Virus record (IMG/VR): IMGVR_UViG_3300025601_000007
Source of the DNA: a virus
Taxonomy: Duplodnaviria; Caudoviricetes
Length of the DNA stretch: 64,000 nt
Direction: 5' to 3' (one strand)
The notes under the pieces are model-generated. The model made no database searches. It saw only the letters and a program-made list of their open reading frames with translations, and was not told the origin of the DNA. Position 1 is the stretch's first letter, and every line of letters begins with the position of its first letter. The position numbers were made by a program, and so were the translations under genes. This document shows positions 9,124 to 48,906 of the stretch, in pieces.

Positions 9124-9746
9124 TATTTTTTTGTATATATTTCTAAAACGTTATTTTCACCAGCCTGAGCTTTGTGAACTAAAGATAAATTGTATCTTTG
9201 AACTATGTATTCCCAGTAGTTTTTTCCCATTTTTCTTCTAATATATGGTTTAAACTCGCTTTTTGAGTGTGGATTTTTACCAATAGTAACAATGTCGTGC
9301 TCATACTTCGGAGTGTCATACCAGTGAATAGCTACGTAAGTTGCTGCCTTCGACGCTTTGTCCATAATCATATCAGGGCTTTCAATGCATTCAATCATAT
9401 GAGACAATACAGCGAAGTCGTATTTTTCTTTATTCGAGTTCATAAAGTCAAAAATGTCAGATTTAACTATTTCTCCATCACCTTTTACAACTTCCTTAGC
9501 TGCGTTTACCAGCGTCTCTGAATTGTCTACTCCTAAATATTTTATGTCTTGGTTTTGAGATTTTAAAATCGGGTATATTTGAGCGTTTCCACAGCCGATA
9601 TCTATTACCGACGGAGAGTCAGACACACTCTTCATATATTTGCTCAACTCTATCTTCATTTCTTTAGAGTAATAATGTAAGTAGTCTTTAGCAATCTTAT
9701 CTGAAGGATTCCATGAGTCTTTTGTTATATCTGTGTTAATATTCAT
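9123..9746 (-). CDS. Class I SAM-dependent methyltransferase
   Basis: VIDIGCGNA motif I; YLGVD; LSHMIECIESPD. Confidence 0.85.
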   Translation of the reverse strand: MNINTDITKDSWNPSDKIAKDYLHYYSKEMKIELSKYMKSVSDSPSVIDIGCGNAQIYPILKSQNQDIKYLGVDNSETLVNAAKEVVKGDGEIVKSDIFDFMNSNKEKYDFAVLSHMIECIESPDMIMDKASKAATYVAIHWYDTPKYEHDIVTIGKNPHSKSEFKPYIRRKMGKNYWEYIVQRYNLSLVHKAQAGENNVLEIYTKK

Positions 9747-9759
9747 TACTGTTTTTTAT

Positions 9760-10395
9760 TTATGTTGTTTCATTCTTTTTTAAAACCACCTTAAAAGTGT
9801 TGTTTTTGTTTTCTTTGTGAAAAATTTCATAACCTAAAGATTTGTTAGATTCATAAAAATCTTTCCACTCTGACTCTGTTTTTATGTTTATATGAACATT
9901 ATCAAATCCGTTCTGCCTTGATATACCATCTAAATGAGCTGTCCCCATTGCGTTGGCATGAAATACCCATTTACTAGTTACTCTAAGTTCTTCCTTAAGT
10001 GTTTCTAGCTCCCATTTAACTGGAACATGTTCCATTCCATCTAAATGCTGCACAATGTCATAGGAATCATTTTCCATATCTATTTTATGACAGCTCATGT
10101 GAAATGCATTTATACCTTCTTTTTTAAGTTCTTTTACAACCCAGTCAGAGATATCTATACCAGCATACTTCACCCCTTCTTTGTGTAGGTGTTTAACTAT
10201 TTCACCACTACCTAATCCTACCTCCAGGATACTAGCTCCCTTACTGTATTCTTCCTGCCATATTTTATGAAATTTATCTGAGTCGTTTAAAAGAAGATTT
10301 AGCTGTCTACCATACCCTGTTTGGCTTTCATGAAGCCCTGTGTATTGGTGAATAGAGTTGTATTTATCTTGCTCATGCTTGAATAAGTCAGTCAT
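9760..10395 (-). CDS. Class I SAM-dependent methyltransferase
   Basis: ILEVGLGSG, GIDIS, DGMEHVP. Confidence 0.85.
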   Translation of the reverse strand: MTDLFKHEQDKYNSIHQYTGLHESQTGYGRQLNLLLNDSDKFHKIWQEEYSKGASILEVGLGSGEIVKHLHKEGVKYAGIDISDWVVKELKKEGINAFHMSCHKIDMENDSYDIVQHLDGMEHVPVKWELETLKEELRVTSKWVFHANAMGTAHLDGISRQNGFDNVHINIKTESEWKDFYESNKSLGYEIFHKENKNNTFKVVLKKNETT

Positions 10396-11041
10396 TTTGT
10401 TTTTTTTGTTGTATTAAAGTTTCTATCATAAACCAATCTTCTGGTTCATCTATTTCTAAATAAGTTTCTGGCGAACACTCTACCATACCAACTTTTCCGT
10501 AAAGCCTGCATGAATTTTCGATTACACCTTTTGCTCTTGAGATATAAAAAGCTCCATTTTCAACTAAAAACCCATCCCACTCTTGTCTTCTAGGGCGCTT
10601 ATGAATATTATATGTAGGCGTCCCGTCTTCGTTCCATATAAATCTTTTTTGCCTAACGACACTTAAAGATGAATCATAGCCTTCGTTTAGCACTTGCTTA
10701 ATTCCTGTATCCAATTCTTCTACATCCACAAGCGGAGATGTAGCTTGTATAAAAACTATAACATCTTCTGGTTGTATGGTTTTAGCAAATTCAATAAGCA
10801 CGATTTCACTAGAAGCTTCATCAGTAGAAGATTCTTTTGACCTAGAAAACATTTCAGCGCCTTTACATTTCTGGAATATATCATCCAAATCTGTTGCTAC
10901 GATTACACTATTTACCAAGGTAGACTTATTTGCTGTGTCAATAGACCATTGTAATAGAGGTTTACCATTTATGAGCTTTATGTTTTTTTGTGGTATACTC
11001 TTACTCCCTGAACGTGCTGGTATAAATGCGTAAATATTCAT
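10388..11041 (-). CDS. neuA: CMP-nonulosonate (acylneuraminate) cytidylyltransferase
   Basis: IPARSGSKSIPQKNIK, QATSPL, ENGAFY, EIDEPEDW. Confidence 0.92.
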   Translation of the reverse strand: MNIYAFIPARSGSKSIPQKNIKLINGKPLLQWSIDTANKSTLVNSVIVATDLDDIFQKCKGAEMFSRSKESSTDEASSEIVLIEFAKTIQPEDVIVFIQATSPLVDVEELDTGIKQVLNEGYDSSLSVVRQKRFIWNEDGTPTYNIHKRPRRQEWDGFLVENGAFYISRAKGVIENSCRLYGKVGMVECSPETYLEIDEPEDWFMIETLIQQKKQND

Positions 11042-41107: not shown

Positions 41108-42754
41108 ATGAGCGAATTGCTAAGAAGTGGTAAGGTTGGAATGACAACATTCAAGAACCTTGCTGAACAACGCACAGCTATCGTGAAGAACTGGGATGAC
41201 TCAGGTCTATTGGAAGGTTTGCGTGGTACACAGAAATCGAACGTAGCACAGCTTCTTGAGAATCAAGCACAGGCGATGCTTAACGAGGTAACACTCGATG
41301 CATCAGCTGGTCGTTTCGACACAGTTGCTTTCCCTATCGTAAGAAGGGTATTCTCTCGACTACTTGCTAATGAGCTTGTATCTGTACAACCACTCGCACT
41401 TCCATCTGGACTACTGTTCTACATGGATGCTAGAGTTTCCTTTAACAATAGTGACAATACATTTAACAATGAAATCGGTAGAACTGCCGAAGTTGCTGGA
41501 GCATCTAAAACTGCACCAAAAAACACAGCCAACCAAAACGTAGGGCCTAATTTTGCTGACACTACTGCATACGAACGTTTTTACAACAATCACGGGTTTG
41601 ACCTTTCCTTTGGAACGGGTGAAACTGTTACAGGTACGTTTCAAATAATTTCAGGTAGTTCGTTTGTAGGTGGTCTTTCTAATATAACGTTTGCATTGGA
41701 CACTGGATTCGACGTGTCGAAGCAGCAATCGTCTGCAACATTACGTTATTCATCTACTACGGAAATCTATTACTCTGCTGGTTCTTCGAACACGCTTGTA
41801 GTAGCAGCTGGTGGCTCAGTACCATTCTTTAGCCAAATTCAAACTTGGACAGAAGACCAGTACGCTGGAAACAATGCTGATGTGGTCCTTGACCTTCGTC
41901 CAGCAGGTGTTTACGGTTCTGACTTCGCAGTTGCCAACTTGAACTCAGGTGGAACTGAATTCGGCGCAGCCGTGAGGTTCACCATCACTCCAGCTTACGA
42001 AATCTTCAACGACCTAGAGGCGAAAAGTGAGATGGCTGAAATCACAATCCGTTTCTCTTCTGTTACAGTTGACACTGTTACTAGAAAGTTGAGAGCACAC
42101 TGGACTCCTGAGCTTGCTCAAGACCTTGAGGCTTACCACTCAATTGATGCAGAAGCTGAGCTTACAGCTCTTCTTTCTGAGCACGTTGCAGCGGAAATCG
42201 ACAGAGAAATCATTATCGACCTTATTAACGGTGCGCCGTTTAAAGCTCGTTGGGATTACAACGGATTGGCTAACAACGCCAACTTCTTTGGAACACAAAA
42301 AGATTGGAATCAAACTCTCATCACTCGTGTAAATGAGCTATCAGCTCAAATTCACAAGGCGACATTGAGAGGTGGTGCTAACTGGATTGTATGTTCTGCA
42401 GAGGCAGGTGCTATTTTCGATGACCTCGAATACTTCCACGTTGACGGTTCTGCTTCACCAGAAGCTGAAAAGTACAACTTGGGTGTTGAGAAAATCGGTA
42501 ACTTGGCTAACAGATATGTTGTCTACAAAGACCCATATTTGCCAGCACAAATCGTTCTTCTAGGACACAAGGGTAACACCTTCTTGGAAGCAGGTTATAT
42601 CTACGCGCCGTACATCCCTCTTCAATTGACGCAAACAATTTATGACCCGAACGACTTTACACCTCGTAAAGGTATCATGACTCGTTACGCCAAGAAGATG
42701 GTTAACAACCGTTTCTACGGAGTCGTATACGTTGACAATATCAACACTTACTAA
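41108..42754 (+). CDS. gp23: Major capsid protein (T4 gp23-like)
   Basis: VSVQPLALPSGLLFY, TRKLRAHWTPELAQDL..YHSIDAEAEL, YAPYIPL, GIMTRY. Confidence 0.96.
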   Translation: MSELLRSGKVGMTTFKNLAEQRTAIVKNWDDSGLLEGLRGTQKSNVAQLLENQAQAMLNEVTLDASAGRFDTVAFPIVRRVFSRLLANELVSVQPLALPSGLLFYMDARVSFNNSDNTFNNEIGRTAEVAGASKTAPKNTANQNVGPNFADTTAYERFYNNHGFDLSFGTGETVTGTFQIISGSSFVGGLSNITFALDTGFDVSKQQSSATLRYSSTTEIYYSAGSSNTLVVAAGGSVPFFSQIQTWTEDQYAGNNADVVLDLRPAGVYGSDFAVANLNSGGTEFGAAVRFTITPAYEIFNDLEAKSEMAEITIRFSSVTVDTVTRKLRAHWTPELAQDLEAYHSIDAEAELTALLSEHVAAEIDREIIIDLINGAPFKARWDYNGLANNANFFGTQKDWNQTLITRVNELSAQIHKATLRGGANWIVCSAEAGAIFDDLEYFHVDGSASPEAEKYNLGVEKIGNLANRYVVYKDPYLPAQIVLLGHKGNTFLEAGYIYAPYIPLQLTQTIYDPNDFTPRKGIMTRYAKKMVNNRFYGVVYVDNINTY

Positions 42755-46313: not shown

Positions 46314-47510
46314 TTAGTAACTAACGGGAAAAGGAATCACATCGTGAATCTTCTCCGCTTTCGTCAAGAACATAACCAGGCGCTCAAATCCCATTCCGAA
46401 CCCAGCATGTGGAACCGTCCCCCATTTACGAGTGTCTAGATACCATTGCATAGATTTTGAATCCACGCCAGCTTCTTCCATTTGAGTTTTTAGCGTATCG
46501 TGGTCCTCTTCTCGAACAGAGCCTCCAATCAACTCTCCAACTTCTGGGAACACCAGGTCAAAACAAATTGCCTTTCCACCTTCTCTCTTCATATAAAATG
46601 GTTTGAGGTCCTGTGGCCAGTGAGTGATAAACACAGGGCCTTTGTGGTGCGCAACTATTTCACGCTCTAGTTCAGTTCCTACATCTTCTCCATATGACAA
46701 ACCAAACTCATCACATACTTCTTGATATGTTATTCGAGAATACCTGGCACCAACCTCAGATTTAAGTGATTCCAAGGTTACTCCCAACTCTTTTTGATGG
46801 CCACTTTTACCAAGTGAAACAGCCACTTTGGCAATTGTCATTCTCAGCATAGACTCGGCAAAATCCATTATTTGCTCTAAGTCATAATGAGCCAGCTCAG
46901 GTTCAATCATCCAGAACTCAGACAAATGCTTTCTGGTTGATGATTTTTCAGCTCGAAAACATGGACCAAAAGTGTAGATTTTCCCCAACGCCATCATACC
47001 AACTTCTCCATGAAGCTGACCCGAAACCGTTAAATGTCGTTTGAGCCATTCTGATTCGGCTGAAAACTGTTCTCCAGCACCCTCACAATCTGAGCTGGTC
47101 ATAATCGGTGTGTGATATTGAGATACTGACTCCTCATGCATAAACGAGTGTAATGCAAAGCTTGTTTCGCTTCGTGCGTGCATAATAGCGCACATGCGTC
47201 GGTCTCGCCCTCGTGTCTGAGGAATCGTTCTAAGAAAGCTTGAAGAGTGAAATTTAGGCTGAACTGGGTAATCTTCTCCAGACTCGCCAAGAACCTCAAT
47301 TGAAGTTGCTTTGAATTCATAATCTCCCCTGGGGGTTCTCCCATCTTCACCCTGCATTTGAATAGACGCTCCAGCAGATAACCCTAGGGAGACTTCGCAG
47401 TCTGAGTGTTTTATTGTTACTTGAAATTCCTCTTGCCCGTCCGTGACGGCTAAGAATGTTAATGCTTTGGATTTACGCACGGAACGAATCCATCCTTGTC
47501 TTGTTTTCAT
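46314..47510 (-). CDS. asnS: Asparagine--tRNA ligase
   Basis: OB-fold GWIRSVR, LTVSGQLHGE, FRAEKSSTRKHLSEFWMIEPE, GELIGGSVRE, PHAGFGMGFER. Confidence 0.95.
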   Translation of the reverse strand: MKTRQGWIRSVRKSKALTFLAVTDGQEEFQVTIKHSDCEVSLGLSAGASIQMQGEDGRTPRGDYEFKATSIEVLGESGEDYPVQPKFHSSSFLRTIPQTRGRDRRMCAIMHARSETSFALHSFMHEESVSQYHTPIMTSSDCEGAGEQFSAESEWLKRHLTVSGQLHGEVGMMALGKIYTFGPCFRAEKSSTRKHLSEFWMIEPELAHYDLEQIMDFAESMLRMTIAKVAVSLGKSGHQKELGVTLESLKSEVGARYSRITYQEVCDEFGLSYGEDVGTELEREIVAHHKGPVFITHWPQDLKPFYMKREGGKAICFDLVFPEVGELIGGSVREEDHDTLKTQMEEAGVDSKSMQWYLDTRKWGTVPHAGFGMGFERLVMFLTKAEKIHDVIPFPVSY

Positions 47511-47537: not shown

Positions 47538-47560
47538 AAAAAAAACCGCTTAGTAGCGGC
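47538..47560 (-). terminator. Attenuator terminator upstream of asnS
   Basis: GCCGCT ACTA AGCGGT followed by T8 on the minus strand. Confidence 0.85.
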
Positions 47561-47587
47561 TTTTGAATATCGATGTTTTTCTATCCC

Positions 47588-47665
47588 TTAATTGGACATA
47601 ACAACCTTATTCATCAGCCGATTGGCGATGTTATTAAAATTGTTATTTAGAGAAAATGTTGTCAT
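47588..47665 (-). CDS. Asn-rich leader peptide (MTTFSLNNNFNNIANRLMNKVVMSN)
   Basis: 25 aa with 8 Asn codons, followed by antiterminator/terminator and asnS. Confidence 0.85.
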   Translation of the reverse strand: MTTFSLNNNFNNIANRLMNKVVMSN

Positions 47666-47745
47666 TGTCTTTTGAAGTCAGTTGCAAGTATATAGATAAA
47701 ATATTACAATACGCAGAATTATTACGATTTTAACCATATAAAGTT

Positions 47746-48126
47746 TCACTTTATAAAGCGACGACCCATGATTCTGAAGTCTATTAAGGGAATGTGAAAA
47801 ATTTCAGTGTTTCTTTTAAAATCTCTATAAGCAGCTCTCCATCTAAAGCCTTGAACTAAATGACTTACTAGTAGAGCAAAAAATAGGCTCACAAAATAAG
47901 TTATAGAAACCCATAATCCCCACCCTCCAGATTTACCGCTCATATAAAGAATGCTGTCAATTAGCCAAATCAAAATAAAAACTGCTTTGACCCAGTTTTT
48001 TGCTAGGGTTTTTTTGTAAACTTTGAGTACTGTTTTTTGCCACGGACTGTCATATACATAAGTTTCAACTGCCTCCTGGATTGCATTTGTATCGTCTTGG
48101 TTCAGTATATATGTTGCTTTTTCCAT
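47746..48126 (-). CDS. Small membrane protein (2 TM)
   Basis: Two hydrophobic segments. Confidence 0.65.
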   Translation of the reverse strand: MEKATYILNQDDTNAIQEAVETYVYDSPWQKTVLKVYKKTLAKNWVKAVFILIWLIDSILYMSGKSGGWGLWVSITYFVSLFFALLVSHLVQGFRWRAAYRDFKRNTEIFHIPLIDFRIMGRRFIK

Positions 48127-48207: not shown

Positions 48208-48906
48208 CTAGCTTCCAGCAAGGGTATTTTTTTTACCAGCCTCCAATAGTATTTTTCTAATTTGATTTCTAATTTGGGTTTCCCAAATAAAAGGATGAGC
48301 CTGCACGGCCTTCTTGTAATGAAGCTTTGCTGGGACTTTCATAAAAATCTCATACTCTATTGTTAACTTTCTTCCGTCAGCTAAAGTCATATCAATGTAT
48401 GTACATTGGTCTTTTTTAGATAAGAAAGAAAACATTTTAGGACCCATTTCACGCCCAAGTTCTAGCGTTTTATTGCAATAGTATTTTTTTAATTTATGAG
48501 GAGCTGCATCAAACTCAGCATCAGAAAGTCCTGTTTTTTTTGACAAAACCACATCAATATACAGTTTTTTTAGGTTGAAAGGCAATTGACCGAACTCAGC
48601 TATAGATACCCACCGCTTTTTTTCGATGTATTTCTCCATTTGAGAATGAGTAGCAGCTTCAATTTCGTGGCGTTCAAGCTCTTTTATTTGTGCAATTAAA
48701 ACATTAATATAGCACTTTTTTTGCGCTTTCGTAGCTGCAACAGTTTCGTCTTTATTCAAACGAATGCCCTTTTCTAGGAGATTGTCTATAAAATCCTTTT
48801 TTTCCCGCTTAGATTTATTATTAAAATCTTTTCTCTCGAAATGCACCATGTCCATAAATAGGTCAGGTTTTGCTAACGCAAACCCTCTGTAGAAGCTTAT
48901 TTTCAA
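48208..48906 (-). CDS. Hypothetical protein
   Basis: 232-aa ORF; start uncertain; possible 3' homopolymer frameshift. Confidence 0.6.
   Translation of the reverse strand: MKISFYRGFALAKPDLFMDMVHFERKDFNNKSKREKKDFIDNLLEKGIRLNKDETVAATKAQKKCYINVLIAQIKELERHEIEAATHSQMEKYIEKKRWVSIAEFGQLPFNLKKLYIDVVLSKKTGLSDAEFDAAPHKLKKYYCNKTLELGREMGPKMFSFLSKKDQCTYIDMTLADGRKLTIEYEIFMKVPAKLHYKKAVQAHPFIWETQIRNQIRKILLEAGKKNTLAGS

What the first reader, a model, noticed from the sequence alone, without database searches (positions are those of the whole stretch)
47538..47692. Phage-encoded Asn leader-peptide attenuator controlling asnS
Seen in sequence (minus strand): a TATACTTG promoter box at 47692-47685, then a 25-aa leader MTTFSLNNNFNNIANRLMNKVVMSN with 8 Asn, five of them in codons 7-12. 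A terminator (GCCGCT/AGCGGT + U8) lies about 28 nt before asnS. A mutually exclusive antiterminator is possible: CGGCUgaUGAAUA (47620-47608, codons 16-20) pairs with UAUUCAaaAGCCG (47569-47557), which overlaps the terminator 5' arm. Established knowledge: this is the trp/his/pheST attenuation geometry; stalling at codons 7-12 frees the antiterminator arm. Inference: the phage senses Asn-tRNA charging and induces its own AsnRS. Ribosome-mediated attenuation on a phage aaRS gene is, to my knowledge, rarely described.
Basis: partly seen in the sequence, partly recalled or inferred. Interest (0 to 1): 0.8.

Follow-up and report, generated by a model that had tools for sequence, protein, structure and literature searches.

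The report
Asparagine-sensing attenuator before phage asnS
A large T4-like phage puts a tiny reading frame full of asparagine codons and a switchable transcription stop in front of its own asparaginyl-tRNA synthetase gene; twelve related phage sequences keep the same device, so the phage probably makes the enzyme only when charged tRNA-Asn runs short.

Summary
On the minus strand lie a promoter-like box, a 25-codon ORF with Asn at 5 of codons 7-12, a hairpin with eight U's 27 nt before a 398-aa AsnRS gene, and a competing antiterminator. That Asn run is the only one in all six frames of the 92-kb record.

Both alternative folds are more stable than shuffled sequence. In folds with part of the RNA masked, a ribosome stalled on the Asn codons gives the antiterminator; a ribosome at the stop codon gives the terminator.

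Twelve further phage or metagenome sequences carry an Asn-run leader, terminator and antiterminator before their asnS, in three sequence types. One is a 634,780-bp GenBank phage. Base pairs covary strongly in the Asn-codon hairpin and the terminator, more weakly in the antiterminator. Only Asn is enriched in these leaders.

Fifty sampled cellular asnS genes, ten other phage-type asnS genes and five other aaRS genes of two related phages lack such a leader.

The best reading is classical ribosome-mediated attenuation, as in pheST or trp, here Asn-specific and phage-borne. I found no paper describing this. Nothing is shown in vivo.

This scan has noted similar Asn-leader devices on other phage DNA. 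Two earlier notes read them as pyrBI-like, which my tests do not support.

The parts
47685..47692 (-). Promoter-like box TATACTTG. It is one mismatch from the Bacteroidota -7 consensus TAnnTTTG and lies 19 nt before the leader AUG.
   Evidence: Sequence. The orthologous box in L003 is TATATTTG. In all, 10 of 13 leaders have a perfect TAnnTTTG and 2 have one mismatch. No transcription start data.
47588..47665 (-). Leader ORF of 25 codons plus UAA stop: MTTFSLNNNFNNIANRLMNKVVMSN.
   Evidence: The L003 ortholog MTTFPLNNNFNNIALRLMNEIVMSN keeps the frame, the Asn run and the stop.
47630..47647 (-). Regulatory codons 7-12 (AAU AAC AAU UUU AAU AAC): the proposed ribosome stall site.
   Evidence: It is the only window of 6 codons with at least 5 Asn in six frames of 64 kb and of 92 kb.
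47598..47646 (-). Region 1:2 hairpin (anti-antiterminator). The outer stem pairs 47646-47635 (Asn codons) with 47609-47598. The inner hairpin 47630-47612 sequesters CGGCUGAUG.
   Evidence: MFE -16.7 kcal/mol, z = -4.63, 0 of 200 shuffles as stable. Against L003, a synonymous UUU to UUC change is matched by A to G in the partner. The homologous stem in 11 relatives covaries.
47608..47620 (-). Antiterminator 5' arm (region 2), CGGCUgaUGAAUA. It starts 12 nt after the first base of Asn codon 12.
47557..47569 (-). Antiterminator 3' arm (region 3), UAUUCAaaAGCCG. It overlaps the terminator 5' arm at 47564-47557.
   Evidence: The antiterminator conformer is the MFE of the nascent RNA: -20 kcal/mol, z = -2.58.
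47538..47564 (-). Intrinsic terminator: AAAAGCCGCU, loop ACUA, AGCGGUUUUU, with a run of eight U's (47545-47538).
   Evidence: The consensus scan listed this hairpin only under the + strand. The minus-strand U-run is read directly from the sequence.
46314..47510 (-). asnS: a short (398 aa) phage-type asparaginyl-tRNA synthetase. Its ATG lies 27 nt after the U-run, with no Shine-Dalgarno sequence.
   Evidence: PF00152 plus PF01336. TIGR00457 scores 371 bits, above its cut-off. It aligns end to end with solved AsnRS 5zg8. It falls in a phage-type clade with 100/100 support, apart from the cellular AsnRS sampled.

Best explanation
This is a classical ribosome-mediated (leader-peptide) transcription attenuator. 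It senses charged tRNA-Asn and gates read-through into the phage's own asnS.

How it most likely works:
1. Transcription starts at a host-type promoter just upstream. Translation of the 25-codon leader begins while RNA polymerase moves on.
2. If Asn-tRNA(Asn) is plentiful, the ribosome passes codons 7-12 and runs to the stop codon at 47590-47588. It then sits between the two antiterminator arms. Region 2 stays unavailable, either behind the ribosome in its small hairpin or blocked sterically. The terminator (47564-47538) forms and transcription stops 27 nt before asnS.
3. With no translation at all, the hairpin containing the Asn codons forms and sequesters region 2. The terminator again forms.
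4. If Asn-tRNA(Asn) is scarce, the ribosome stalls on the Asn codons and melts that hairpin. Region 2 (47620-47608) then pairs with region 3 (47569-47557). The terminator cannot form and asnS is transcribed.

Shown here: the sequence elements, the thermodynamic plausibility of each conformer, the conservation and the covariation.

Inferred: the promoter and transcription start, coupling of transcription and translation in the (probably Bacteroidota) host, actual stalling, termination and read-through, and AsnRS activity.
For: 1. All parts are present and mutually exclusive as required.

2. Folds with part of the RNA masked behave as the model needs. With a ribosome on Asn codons 7-9 and the terminator 3' arm not yet made, the MFE is the antiterminator (-20 kcal/mol). 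With a ribosome at the stop codon, the terminator forms. The same holds for the 7 leaders modelled this way. With a ribosome on the first Asn codon, all 13 give an antiterminator fold.

3. Both conformers beat shuffled sequence: z = -2.58 and z = -4.63.

4. The Asn run is unique in the 92-kb record.

5. The device recurs. Besides the window, 12 sequences carry an Asn-run leader, a terminator and an antiterminator before asnS: L003, L001, L214, L226, L155, L156, L157, L158, L212, L221 (LR745206.1), L222 and L224. AsnRS identity to the window's protein falls to about 53%.

6. The three sequence types use different region 2/3 sequences: CGGCU/AGCCG, CCUGAC/GUCAGG and GUCUGAU/AUCAGAC. Complementarity of region 2 to 3 and of region 3 to 4 is kept in each.

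7. Covariation in 11 aligned leaders. In the Asn-codon hairpin plus terminator, 98.2% of cells are paired, 11 pairs change on both sides, and 0 of 500 shuffles reach this. Slid controls give 32-50% paired.

8. In the antiterminator, 75.8% of cells are paired against 12-39% when slid, and 4 of 500 shuffles reach its covariation score. The pair next to the invariant CUGA/UCAG core is C-G in 3 sequences and U-A in 8. Its 3' partner lies in the terminator loop in 8 of the 11, so the terminator does not explain it there. The next pair runs G-C, A-U, G-U.

9. Only Asn is enriched. In 11 of 23 phage-type asnS upstream regions a small ORF has at least 4 Asn in 6 codons. No other amino acid reaches this on the sense strand.

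10. The leader region is 83.5% identical between the window and L003. The asnS coding DNA is 73.5% identical and the DNA further upstream 59%.

11. No promoter box lies between the terminator and asnS, so asnS transcripts must pass the terminator.

12. The spacing is conserved. Region 2 starts 9-18 nt after the last Asn codon of the run in 11 of 13 leaders. L226 and L222 give -5 and 4, because the count there includes an Asn codon lying after the main run. The stop-to-terminator distance is 21-33 nt.
Against: - There is no RNA or experimental evidence of any kind. No RNA sequencing run holds this stretch.
- For the window's own sequence type there are only two sequences (the window and L003). 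Covariation of its particular antiterminator is therefore thin. The strong statistics come from the other two types.
- The core of the antiterminator helix in relatives is invariant and so uninformative. Three of its nine pairs are formed in at most 6 of 11 sequences.
- The promoter motif is not enriched before genes of this window, and one relative (L158) lacks it.
- Close relatives lack the device: L213 at 71% and L004 at 64% AsnRS identity. It is therefore dispensable.
- Fifty sampled cellular asnS genes lack it, so there is no host precedent to lean on.
- Whether the host couples transcription and translation closely enough is not known.
Confidence: 0.8

Rival explanations
1. Translation-coupled attenuation of the pyrBI or rph-pyrE type, with the opposite logic. 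A ribosome that translates the leader efficiently (Asn plentiful) follows RNA polymerase closely and suppresses the terminator. Stalling at Asn codons uncouples the two and lets the terminator act. Two earlier notes of this scan read similar lake-phage elements this way.
For: The leader stop lies 21-33 nt before the terminator stem. In E. coli a terminating ribosome can still lower termination at 17-30 bp, depending on sequence (PMC4824070). The antiterminator helix is short (7-9 bp) in the 15- to 19-codon leaders.
Against: In the same E. coli study the effect is gone beyond about 30 bp and strongest within a few bp. Here the stop is never closer than 21 nt, and it is 23 nt in the window. A ribosome at the stop covers region 2 (short leaders) or sits between the antiterminator arms (window type), which favours the terminator. 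Region 2 stays complementary to region 3 in three different sequence solutions, with compensatory changes that reach into the terminator loop; a pyrBI-type device has no need for this. Inducing an AsnRS when Asn-tRNA is already plentiful makes no physiological sense.
Confidence: 0.07
2. An RNA-only element. The hairpins are bound by a protein (for example AsnRS repressing itself, as ThrRS does on thrS) or by uncharged tRNA (T-box-like). The small ORF is incidental and not translated.
For: aaRS genes are often controlled this way: T-boxes in Firmicutes, and thrS in E. coli (PMC1262725; PMC2965389). There is no Shine-Dalgarno sequence before the leader AUG.
Against: No T-box or other Rfam family matches; the best hit is a sub-threshold Trp_leader at 24.6 bits against 41. 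In all 13 sequences an AUG is in frame with the AAY run and a stop follows. AAU and AAC alternate synonymously while the pairing partner compensates. Peptides differ outside the Asn run. Shine-Dalgarno motifs are not enriched anywhere in this phage, at 4 of 62 genes against 8% at random positions, so their absence here says nothing.
Confidence: 0.05
3. An ordinary terminator closing the upstream transcription unit, next to a chance small ORF. asnS would be expressed constitutively from read-through or from an unrecognised promoter.
For: Phage genomes hold many intergenic terminators with partial read-through. The consensus scans find promoter-like and terminator-like sites at chance frequency in this region.
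Against: The Asn run is unique in 92 kb. It recurs before asnS in 12 other sequences whose upstream genes differ. Only Asn is enriched. The region is conserved above the coding level, and a hairpin involving the codons covaries.
Confidence: 0.03

Closest known systems
E. coli pheM-pheST attenuator (leader peptide controlling an aminoacyl-tRNA synthetase operon). Cited in PMC1262725; mechanistic details are from my own knowledge.
   Same: A short leader ORF rich in the cognate codons, alternative terminator and antiterminator hairpins, and control of the matching aaRS gene by the charging level of its own tRNA.
   Different: It senses Phe, not Asn. It is chromosomal in a gamma-proteobacterium, not phage-borne. 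There is no sequence similarity. The host here is probably a Bacteroidota, which does not use Shine-Dalgarno sequences. In most relatives the leader AUG lies 4-5 nt after the promoter box, so the mRNA would be nearly leaderless.
trp, his, leu and thr leader attenuators of enterobacteria (Rfam Trp_leader RF00513 and the like)
   Same: The four-region logic: regulatory codons in region 1 paired to region 2, a 2:3 antiterminator and a 3:4 terminator with a U-run. Termination also occurs when the leader is not translated.
   Different: Those control biosynthetic operons, not an aaRS gene. The window matches Trp_leader only below threshold (24.6 bits against 41), mostly through the terminator. It is not a member of any Rfam leader family.
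Predicted classical attenuators before trpS and leuS in Streptomyces (PMC1262725)
   Same: Leader-peptide attenuators in front of aaRS genes outside the proteobacteria, found by comparative genomics only.
   Different: A different amino acid and a different phylum. They are cellular, not viral.
T-box riboswitches before aaRS genes of Firmicutes (PMC2494555 is listed; the mechanism is from my own knowledge)
   Same: The same physiological logic: uncharged tRNA leads to antitermination and more synthetase.
   Different: T-boxes bind tRNA directly and need no translation. No T-box was found here.
pyrBI (pyrL) and rph-pyrE attenuators
   Same: A leader ORF plus an intrinsic terminator, with the outcome depending on the position of the ribosome.
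   Different: There the ribosome must reach the terminator itself. Here the stop lies 21-33 nt upstream of it, and a covarying antiterminator exists.

Membership tests
Ribosome-mediated leader-peptide transcription attenuators (trp/his/pheST class) | Short ORF upstream on the same strand with clustered codons for the cognate amino acid | tested here: met
   The ORF has 25 codons, and 5 of codons 7-12 are Asn. It is the only such run in 92 kb. Only Asn is enriched across 23 phage asnS upstream regions.
Ribosome-mediated leader-peptide transcription attenuators (trp/his/pheST class) | Intrinsic terminator (GC-rich hairpin plus U-run) between the leader ORF and the regulated gene | tested here: met
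   The hairpin at 47564-47541 is followed by eight U's and ends 27 nt before asnS. A terminator is present in all 13 leaders, at -11 to -21 kcal/mol. This is sequence-level evidence only.
Ribosome-mediated leader-peptide transcription attenuators (trp/his/pheST class) | Antiterminator that is mutually exclusive with the terminator | tested here: met
   Arm 47620-47608 pairs with 47569-47557 and overlaps the terminator 5' arm. It is the MFE of the nascent RNA, z = -2.58. In relatives 75.8% of cells are paired against 12-39% when slid, with compensatory changes.
Ribosome-mediated leader-peptide transcription attenuators (trp/his/pheST class) | Region 1:2 pairing that includes the regulatory codons and sequesters region 2 when no ribosome is stalled | tested here: met
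   Arm 47646-47635 pairs with 47609-47598, with an inner hairpin; z = -4.63. The homologous stem is 97% paired, and 5 of its 10 pairs change on both sides.
Ribosome-mediated leader-peptide transcription attenuators (trp/his/pheST class) | Spacing such that a stalled ribosome frees region 2 and a ribosome at the stop blocks the antiterminator | tested here: met
   Shown by modelling only. Region 2 starts 12 nt after the first base of codon 12. The stop is 30 nt downstream of the start of region 2 in the window, and lies inside region 2 in the short leaders.
Ribosome-mediated leader-peptide transcription attenuators (trp/his/pheST class) | Regulated gene functionally tied to the sensed amino acid | tested here: met
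   It is asnS: TIGR00457 scores above its cut-off, both the OB domain and the class II core are present, and it aligns fully with solved AsnRS. Enzyme activity was not tested.
Ribosome-mediated leader-peptide transcription attenuators (trp/his/pheST class) | Promoter upstream of the leader, and none between the terminator and the gene | tested here: inconclusive
   A TAnnTTTG-like box precedes 12 of 13 leaders, and none lies between the terminator and asnS. However, the motif is not enriched before genes in this window, and there are no transcription start data.
Ribosome-mediated leader-peptide transcription attenuators (trp/his/pheST class) | Termination and read-through in vivo that respond to charging of the cognate tRNA | not testable with these tools
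   No RNA run holds the stretch. Reporter assays, Term-seq or in-vitro transcription are needed.
Rfam leader families (Trp_leader RF00513 and others) and T-box (RF00230) | Covariance-model score at or above the family's gathering threshold | tested here: not met
   The best hit is Trp_leader at 24.6 bits against 41, E = 0.058. There is no T-box hit at E up to 10.
pyrBI / rph-pyrE type translation-coupled attenuators | Leader translation ends within or a few nucleotides before the terminator hairpin, so the ribosome blocks it directly | tested here: not met
   The stop-to-terminator stem distance is 23 nt in the window and 21-33 nt in all 13 leaders. In E. coli the effect fades by about 30 bp (PMC4824070).

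The most novel reading that the evidence does not exclude
Large phages of Bacteroidota, both T4-like jumbo phages and 630-kb megaphages, monitor the host's charged tRNA-Asn pool. They do so with their own Asn-codon leader ORF, which may be nearly leaderless, and they switch on a phage AsnRS only when ribosomes stall. This would be the first Asn-specific leader-peptide attenuator. It would also be among the first amino-acid-sensing attenuators described in a virus. It implies that phage aaRS genes are conditional rescue devices rather than constitutive takeover genes.
Probability: 0.65. Interest if true: 0.65.

Novelty: new member of a known kind. Interest (0 to 1): 0.6.

Why it matters
Huge phages carry up to 15 aminoacyl-tRNA synthetase genes (PMC7162821). 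Why they carry them, and when they are used, is an open question.

A cognate-codon attenuator in front of a phage asnS suggests that the enzyme is made on demand, when the infected cell runs short of charged tRNA-Asn. That turns the question into a simple reporter experiment.

The finding also extends textbook attenuation in three directions:
- to asparagine;
- to viruses;
- to a host phylum that lacks Shine-Dalgarno-led initiation.

Finally, it supplies 13 natural variants with three different sequence solutions for the same switch.

Tried and rejected
- **Expression data.** No RNA holder is listed for the stretch; all 20 holders are salt-lake DNA metagenomes.
- **Host precedent.** I sampled 50 cellular asnS genes from the phylum of a Bacteroides uniformis genome. 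None has an Asn-run small ORF within about 500 nt upstream. This means not found in those searched, not absent.
- **Other aaRS genes.** GlnRS/GluRS-type and class IIb genes of LR745206.1 and of the 132-kb relative have no cognate leader.
- **Motif scan of IMG/VR** for an Asn run, CTGA and GGGTTTTTT. It gave five hits. Only the known relative is a real leader; the other four are chance matches without a leader ORF.
- **Scan for further window-type leaders** in IMG/VR. It gave one chance hit inside a coding region.
- **blastn of the locus against GenBank phages.** It matched only the asnS coding part of LR745206.1.
- **Promoter motif.** TAnnTTTG is not enriched before genes of at least 120 aa in the window. 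TATATTTG occurs 8 times against 3.5 expected.
- **Literature.** Searches for an Asn leader or a phage aaRS attenuator found nothing relevant.
- **Homology between leader types.** The window-type and short-type leaders share AAUAACAAUUUUAA and the complementary GUUGUUAU. Because Asn codons force such sequence, convergence cannot be excluded. I leave this open.
- **Not used.** Structure prediction and complex prediction were not used, because no claim here rests on them.

Full report
**What is there**

On the minus strand the window holds, in order:
- a box TATACTTG at 47692-47685;
- a 25-codon ORF at 47665-47588, MTTFSLNNNFNNIANRLMNKVVMSN, in which 5 of codons 7-12 are Asn;
- a GC-rich hairpin at 47564-47541 followed by eight U's that end at 47538;
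- 27 nt later, a 398-codon gene at 47510-46314.

That gene is an asparaginyl-tRNA synthetase.
- It has the OB anticodon-binding domain and the class II catalytic core.
- It scores 371 bits on the asnS equivalog TIGR00457, whose cut-off is 343.
- It aligns end to end with solved AsnRS structures, with a shortened insertion between motifs 2 and 3.

The window belongs to a T4-like phage. A Gp23 capsid gene lies at 41108-42754. The source is a 92-kb IMG/VR record, found in salt-lake metagenomes.

**Is it more than chance?**

- In all six frames of the 64-kb window, and of the whole 92-kb record, there is exactly one stretch of six codons with at least five Asn. It is this one, about 120 nt upstream of asnS on the same strand.
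- The full leader folds into a hairpin that pairs the Asn codons (47646-47635) with 47609-47598. This hairpin encloses a small hairpin that ties up the antiterminator 5' arm. The terminator follows.
- The Asn-codon hairpin alone has z = -4.63 against dinucleotide shuffles.

**Folds with part of the RNA masked**

I masked the RNA that a ribosome would cover and folded what RNA polymerase would have made by then.
- With the A site on Asn codons 7-9, the MFE is the antiterminator.
- With the ribosome at the stop codon, the terminator forms. The ribosome then occupies the 38-nt loop between the antiterminator arms, so the arms cannot meet.
- The same two outcomes hold for the seven leaders modelled this way. 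With the first Asn codon in the A site, all 13 leaders give an antiterminator fold.

**Relatives**

The nearest AsnRS homologues are about 390-400 aa proteins from metagenomes and viral contigs. In a tree they form a clade with 100/100 support, apart from the cellular AsnRS sampled.

I fetched the DNA upstream of 23 such genes. Thirteen, including the window, carry an Asn-run leader ORF followed by a terminator, in three sequence types.

| Type | Sequences | Leader peptides |
|---|---|---|
| A | window, L003 | MTTFSLNNNFNNIANRLMNKVVMSN; L003 is homologous with four residues changed |
| B | L001, L214, L226 | MKSLSINNNNHNRKP, MKISKVNNNNSNRKT, MKMKVNNNNNSNRNT |
| C | L155, L156, L221, L157, L212, L158, L222, L224 | for example METKLNNNNNLTDKV and MKQVSINNNNSNRLV |

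- L003 has 72% AsnRS identity to the window's protein.
- L221 is GenBank LR745206.1, an uncultured phage of 634,780 bp. L212 is a 630-kb contig.
- Huge phages of more than 634 kb were predicted to infect Bacteroidetes (PMC7162821). That LR745206.1 is one of them is my inference from its size.

Ten phage-type asnS genes lack the leader, among them close relatives of the window's gene: L213 at 71% and L004 at 64% identity. On the tree the device occurs in two places and needs two to four gains or losses.

**Specificity**

- In 11 of the 23 upstream regions a small ORF has at least four Asn in six consecutive codons. No other amino acid reaches that on the sense strand. The two remaining leader-bearing sequences, L156 and L221, have shorter Asn runs (NNRN) and fall below that threshold.
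- A motif scan of IMG/VR that did not ask for asnS found five places. The only one with a leader ORF is the one before asnS.
- Other aaRS genes of two of these phages have no cognate leader.
- Fifty cellular asnS genes sampled from the phylum of a Bacteroides genome have none either.

**Covariation**

I aligned 11 type B and C leaders.
- RNAalifold recovers the Asn-codon hairpin and the terminator.
- On these two helices 98.2% of cells are paired and 11 of 20 pairs change on both sides. No shuffle of 500 reaches this. Sliding the partner gives 32-50% paired.
- A telling pair is the wobble base of an Asn codon: AAC or AAU is matched by G or A downstream. The peptide is kept while the RNA pairing is kept too.
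- For the antiterminator the four central pairs (CUGA with UCAG) never vary and say nothing.
- The pair next to that core is C-G in type B and U-A in type C, and it is paired in 11 of 11 sequences. Its 3' partner lies in the terminator loop in 8 of the 11, so the terminator does not explain it there.
- The next pair out is G-C, A-U in LR745206.1 and G-U in L222.
- Overall the antiterminator is 75.8% paired against 12-39% when slid, and 4 of 500 shuffles reach its covariation score. This is real but weaker support than for the other helices.
- Across the three types, region 2 and region 3 have different sequences (CGGCU/AGCCG, CCUGAC/GUCAGG, GUCUGAU/AUCAGAC) yet stay complementary.

For the window's own type only two sequences exist.
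- Between them the leader region is 83.5% identical. The asnS coding DNA is 73.5% identical and the DNA further upstream 59%.
- One synonymous change, Phe UUU to UUC, is matched by A to G in its partner.

**Geometry**

- In types B and C the leader stop UGA lies inside region 2, so a terminating ribosome masks it directly.
- In the window type the same CUGAUG is read out of frame and the ORF runs ten codons further. The ribosome then ends between the arms.
- In all 13 leaders the stop is 21-33 nt before the terminator stem.
- Region 2 begins 9-18 nt after the last Asn codon in 11 of 13 leaders. L226 and L222 give -5 and 4, because their count includes an Asn codon that lies after the main run.
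- Ten of 13 leaders are preceded by a perfect TAnnTTTG box, two by a one-mismatch box, and L158 has none.
- In types B and C the box ends 4-5 nt before the AUG, which suggests nearly leaderless leader mRNAs. This is inference; there are no transcription start data.
- Shine-Dalgarno motifs are not enriched before genes of this phage: 4 of 62 genes against 8% at random positions. That fits a Bacteroidota host.

**Mechanism and rivals**

The best-supported reading is classical ribosome-mediated attenuation.
- No stalling gives the terminator.
- Stalling at Asn codons gives the antiterminator and asnS transcription.

Two earlier notes of this scan, on other phages, read similar elements as pyrBI-like switches that open when Asn is plentiful. 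I tested that reading and do not support it, for three reasons.
- The stop is too far from the terminator for direct blocking. In E. coli the effect is strongest within a few bp and gone by about 30 bp (PMC4824070).
- A ribosome at the stop favours the terminator here.
- The antiterminator covaries.

The other rivals fare as follows.
- An RNA-only, protein- or tRNA-bound element is unlikely. The AUG, the frame and the stop are kept in all 13 leaders while peptides vary outside the Asn run, and no T-box is found.
- A plain terminator with a chance ORF is excluded by the comparative data.

**Comparison with what is known**

- Leader-peptide attenuators before aaRS genes are known for pheST and predicted for trpS and leuS in Streptomyces (PMC1262725).
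- Leader-peptide attenuation has been inferred for amino-acid operons in a Flavobacterium (PMC9723704).
- I found no paper on an Asn-specific leader or on an attenuator in front of a phage aaRS.
- The huge-phage paper lists the synthetases but not their control.
- The element is not a member of any Rfam leader family.

I therefore class it as a new member of a well-known kind. It is new in the amino acid it senses and in being viral.

**What is not shown**

No transcript end, no transcription start, no stalling, no response to Asn, no enzyme activity and no host has been demonstrated.

Noticed in passing
L005:2359-2529 and L011 (about 140 nt upstream of asnS): Another subclade of phage-type asnS has no Asn leader. 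Instead it shares a conserved small ORF or hairpin just upstream (peptide ..KTAGVYG..APFAFYN; DNA core ACTGCGGGCGTCTATGGT...CACCATTCGCC). This may be a different regulatory element.
   Followed up: no
L004:2415-2500: The 64%-identical asnS relative lacks the leader. It has two tandem TATATTTG boxes and a 22-nt perfect hairpin (GGAGTTATAATATTATAACTCC) with no U-run right before asnS.
   Followed up: no
L212:3098-5881; L221:57-1308; L156:141-1167; L155:752-1157: In the megaphage relatives the Asn leader and asnS sit directly downstream of large tRNA gene arrays. L212 has 18 tRNA genes, three of them tRNA-Asn(GUU), within 3 kb upstream. The window's 92-kb record has no tRNA gene.
   Followed up: partly
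window 46314-47510 and homologues P0004-P0122: The phage-type AsnRS proteins (about 390-400 aa) form a clade with 100/100 support, apart from the cellular AsnRS sampled. The best cellular hits reach only about 40% identity. They are shortened between motifs 2 and 3 relative to solved AsnRS.
   Followed up: partly
L212:8307-9293 and 9342-10811: In the 630-kb contig a GIY-YIG/NUMOD1 homing-endonuclease gene and a GlnRS/GluRS-type gene lie next to asnS. That aaRS has no cognate leader.
   Followed up: partly
window, genes of at least 120 aa: Shine-Dalgarno-like cores precede only 4 of 62 genes, no more than at random positions. TAnnTTTG is not enriched within 120 nt upstream of gene starts, so most genes probably use other, phage-specific promoters.
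   Followed up: partly
window 47746-48126 (-) and 48208-48906 (-): The two genes upstream of the leader have no Pfam match. No terminator separates 47746-48126 from the leader, so transcription from further upstream would also enter the attenuator.
   Followed up: no
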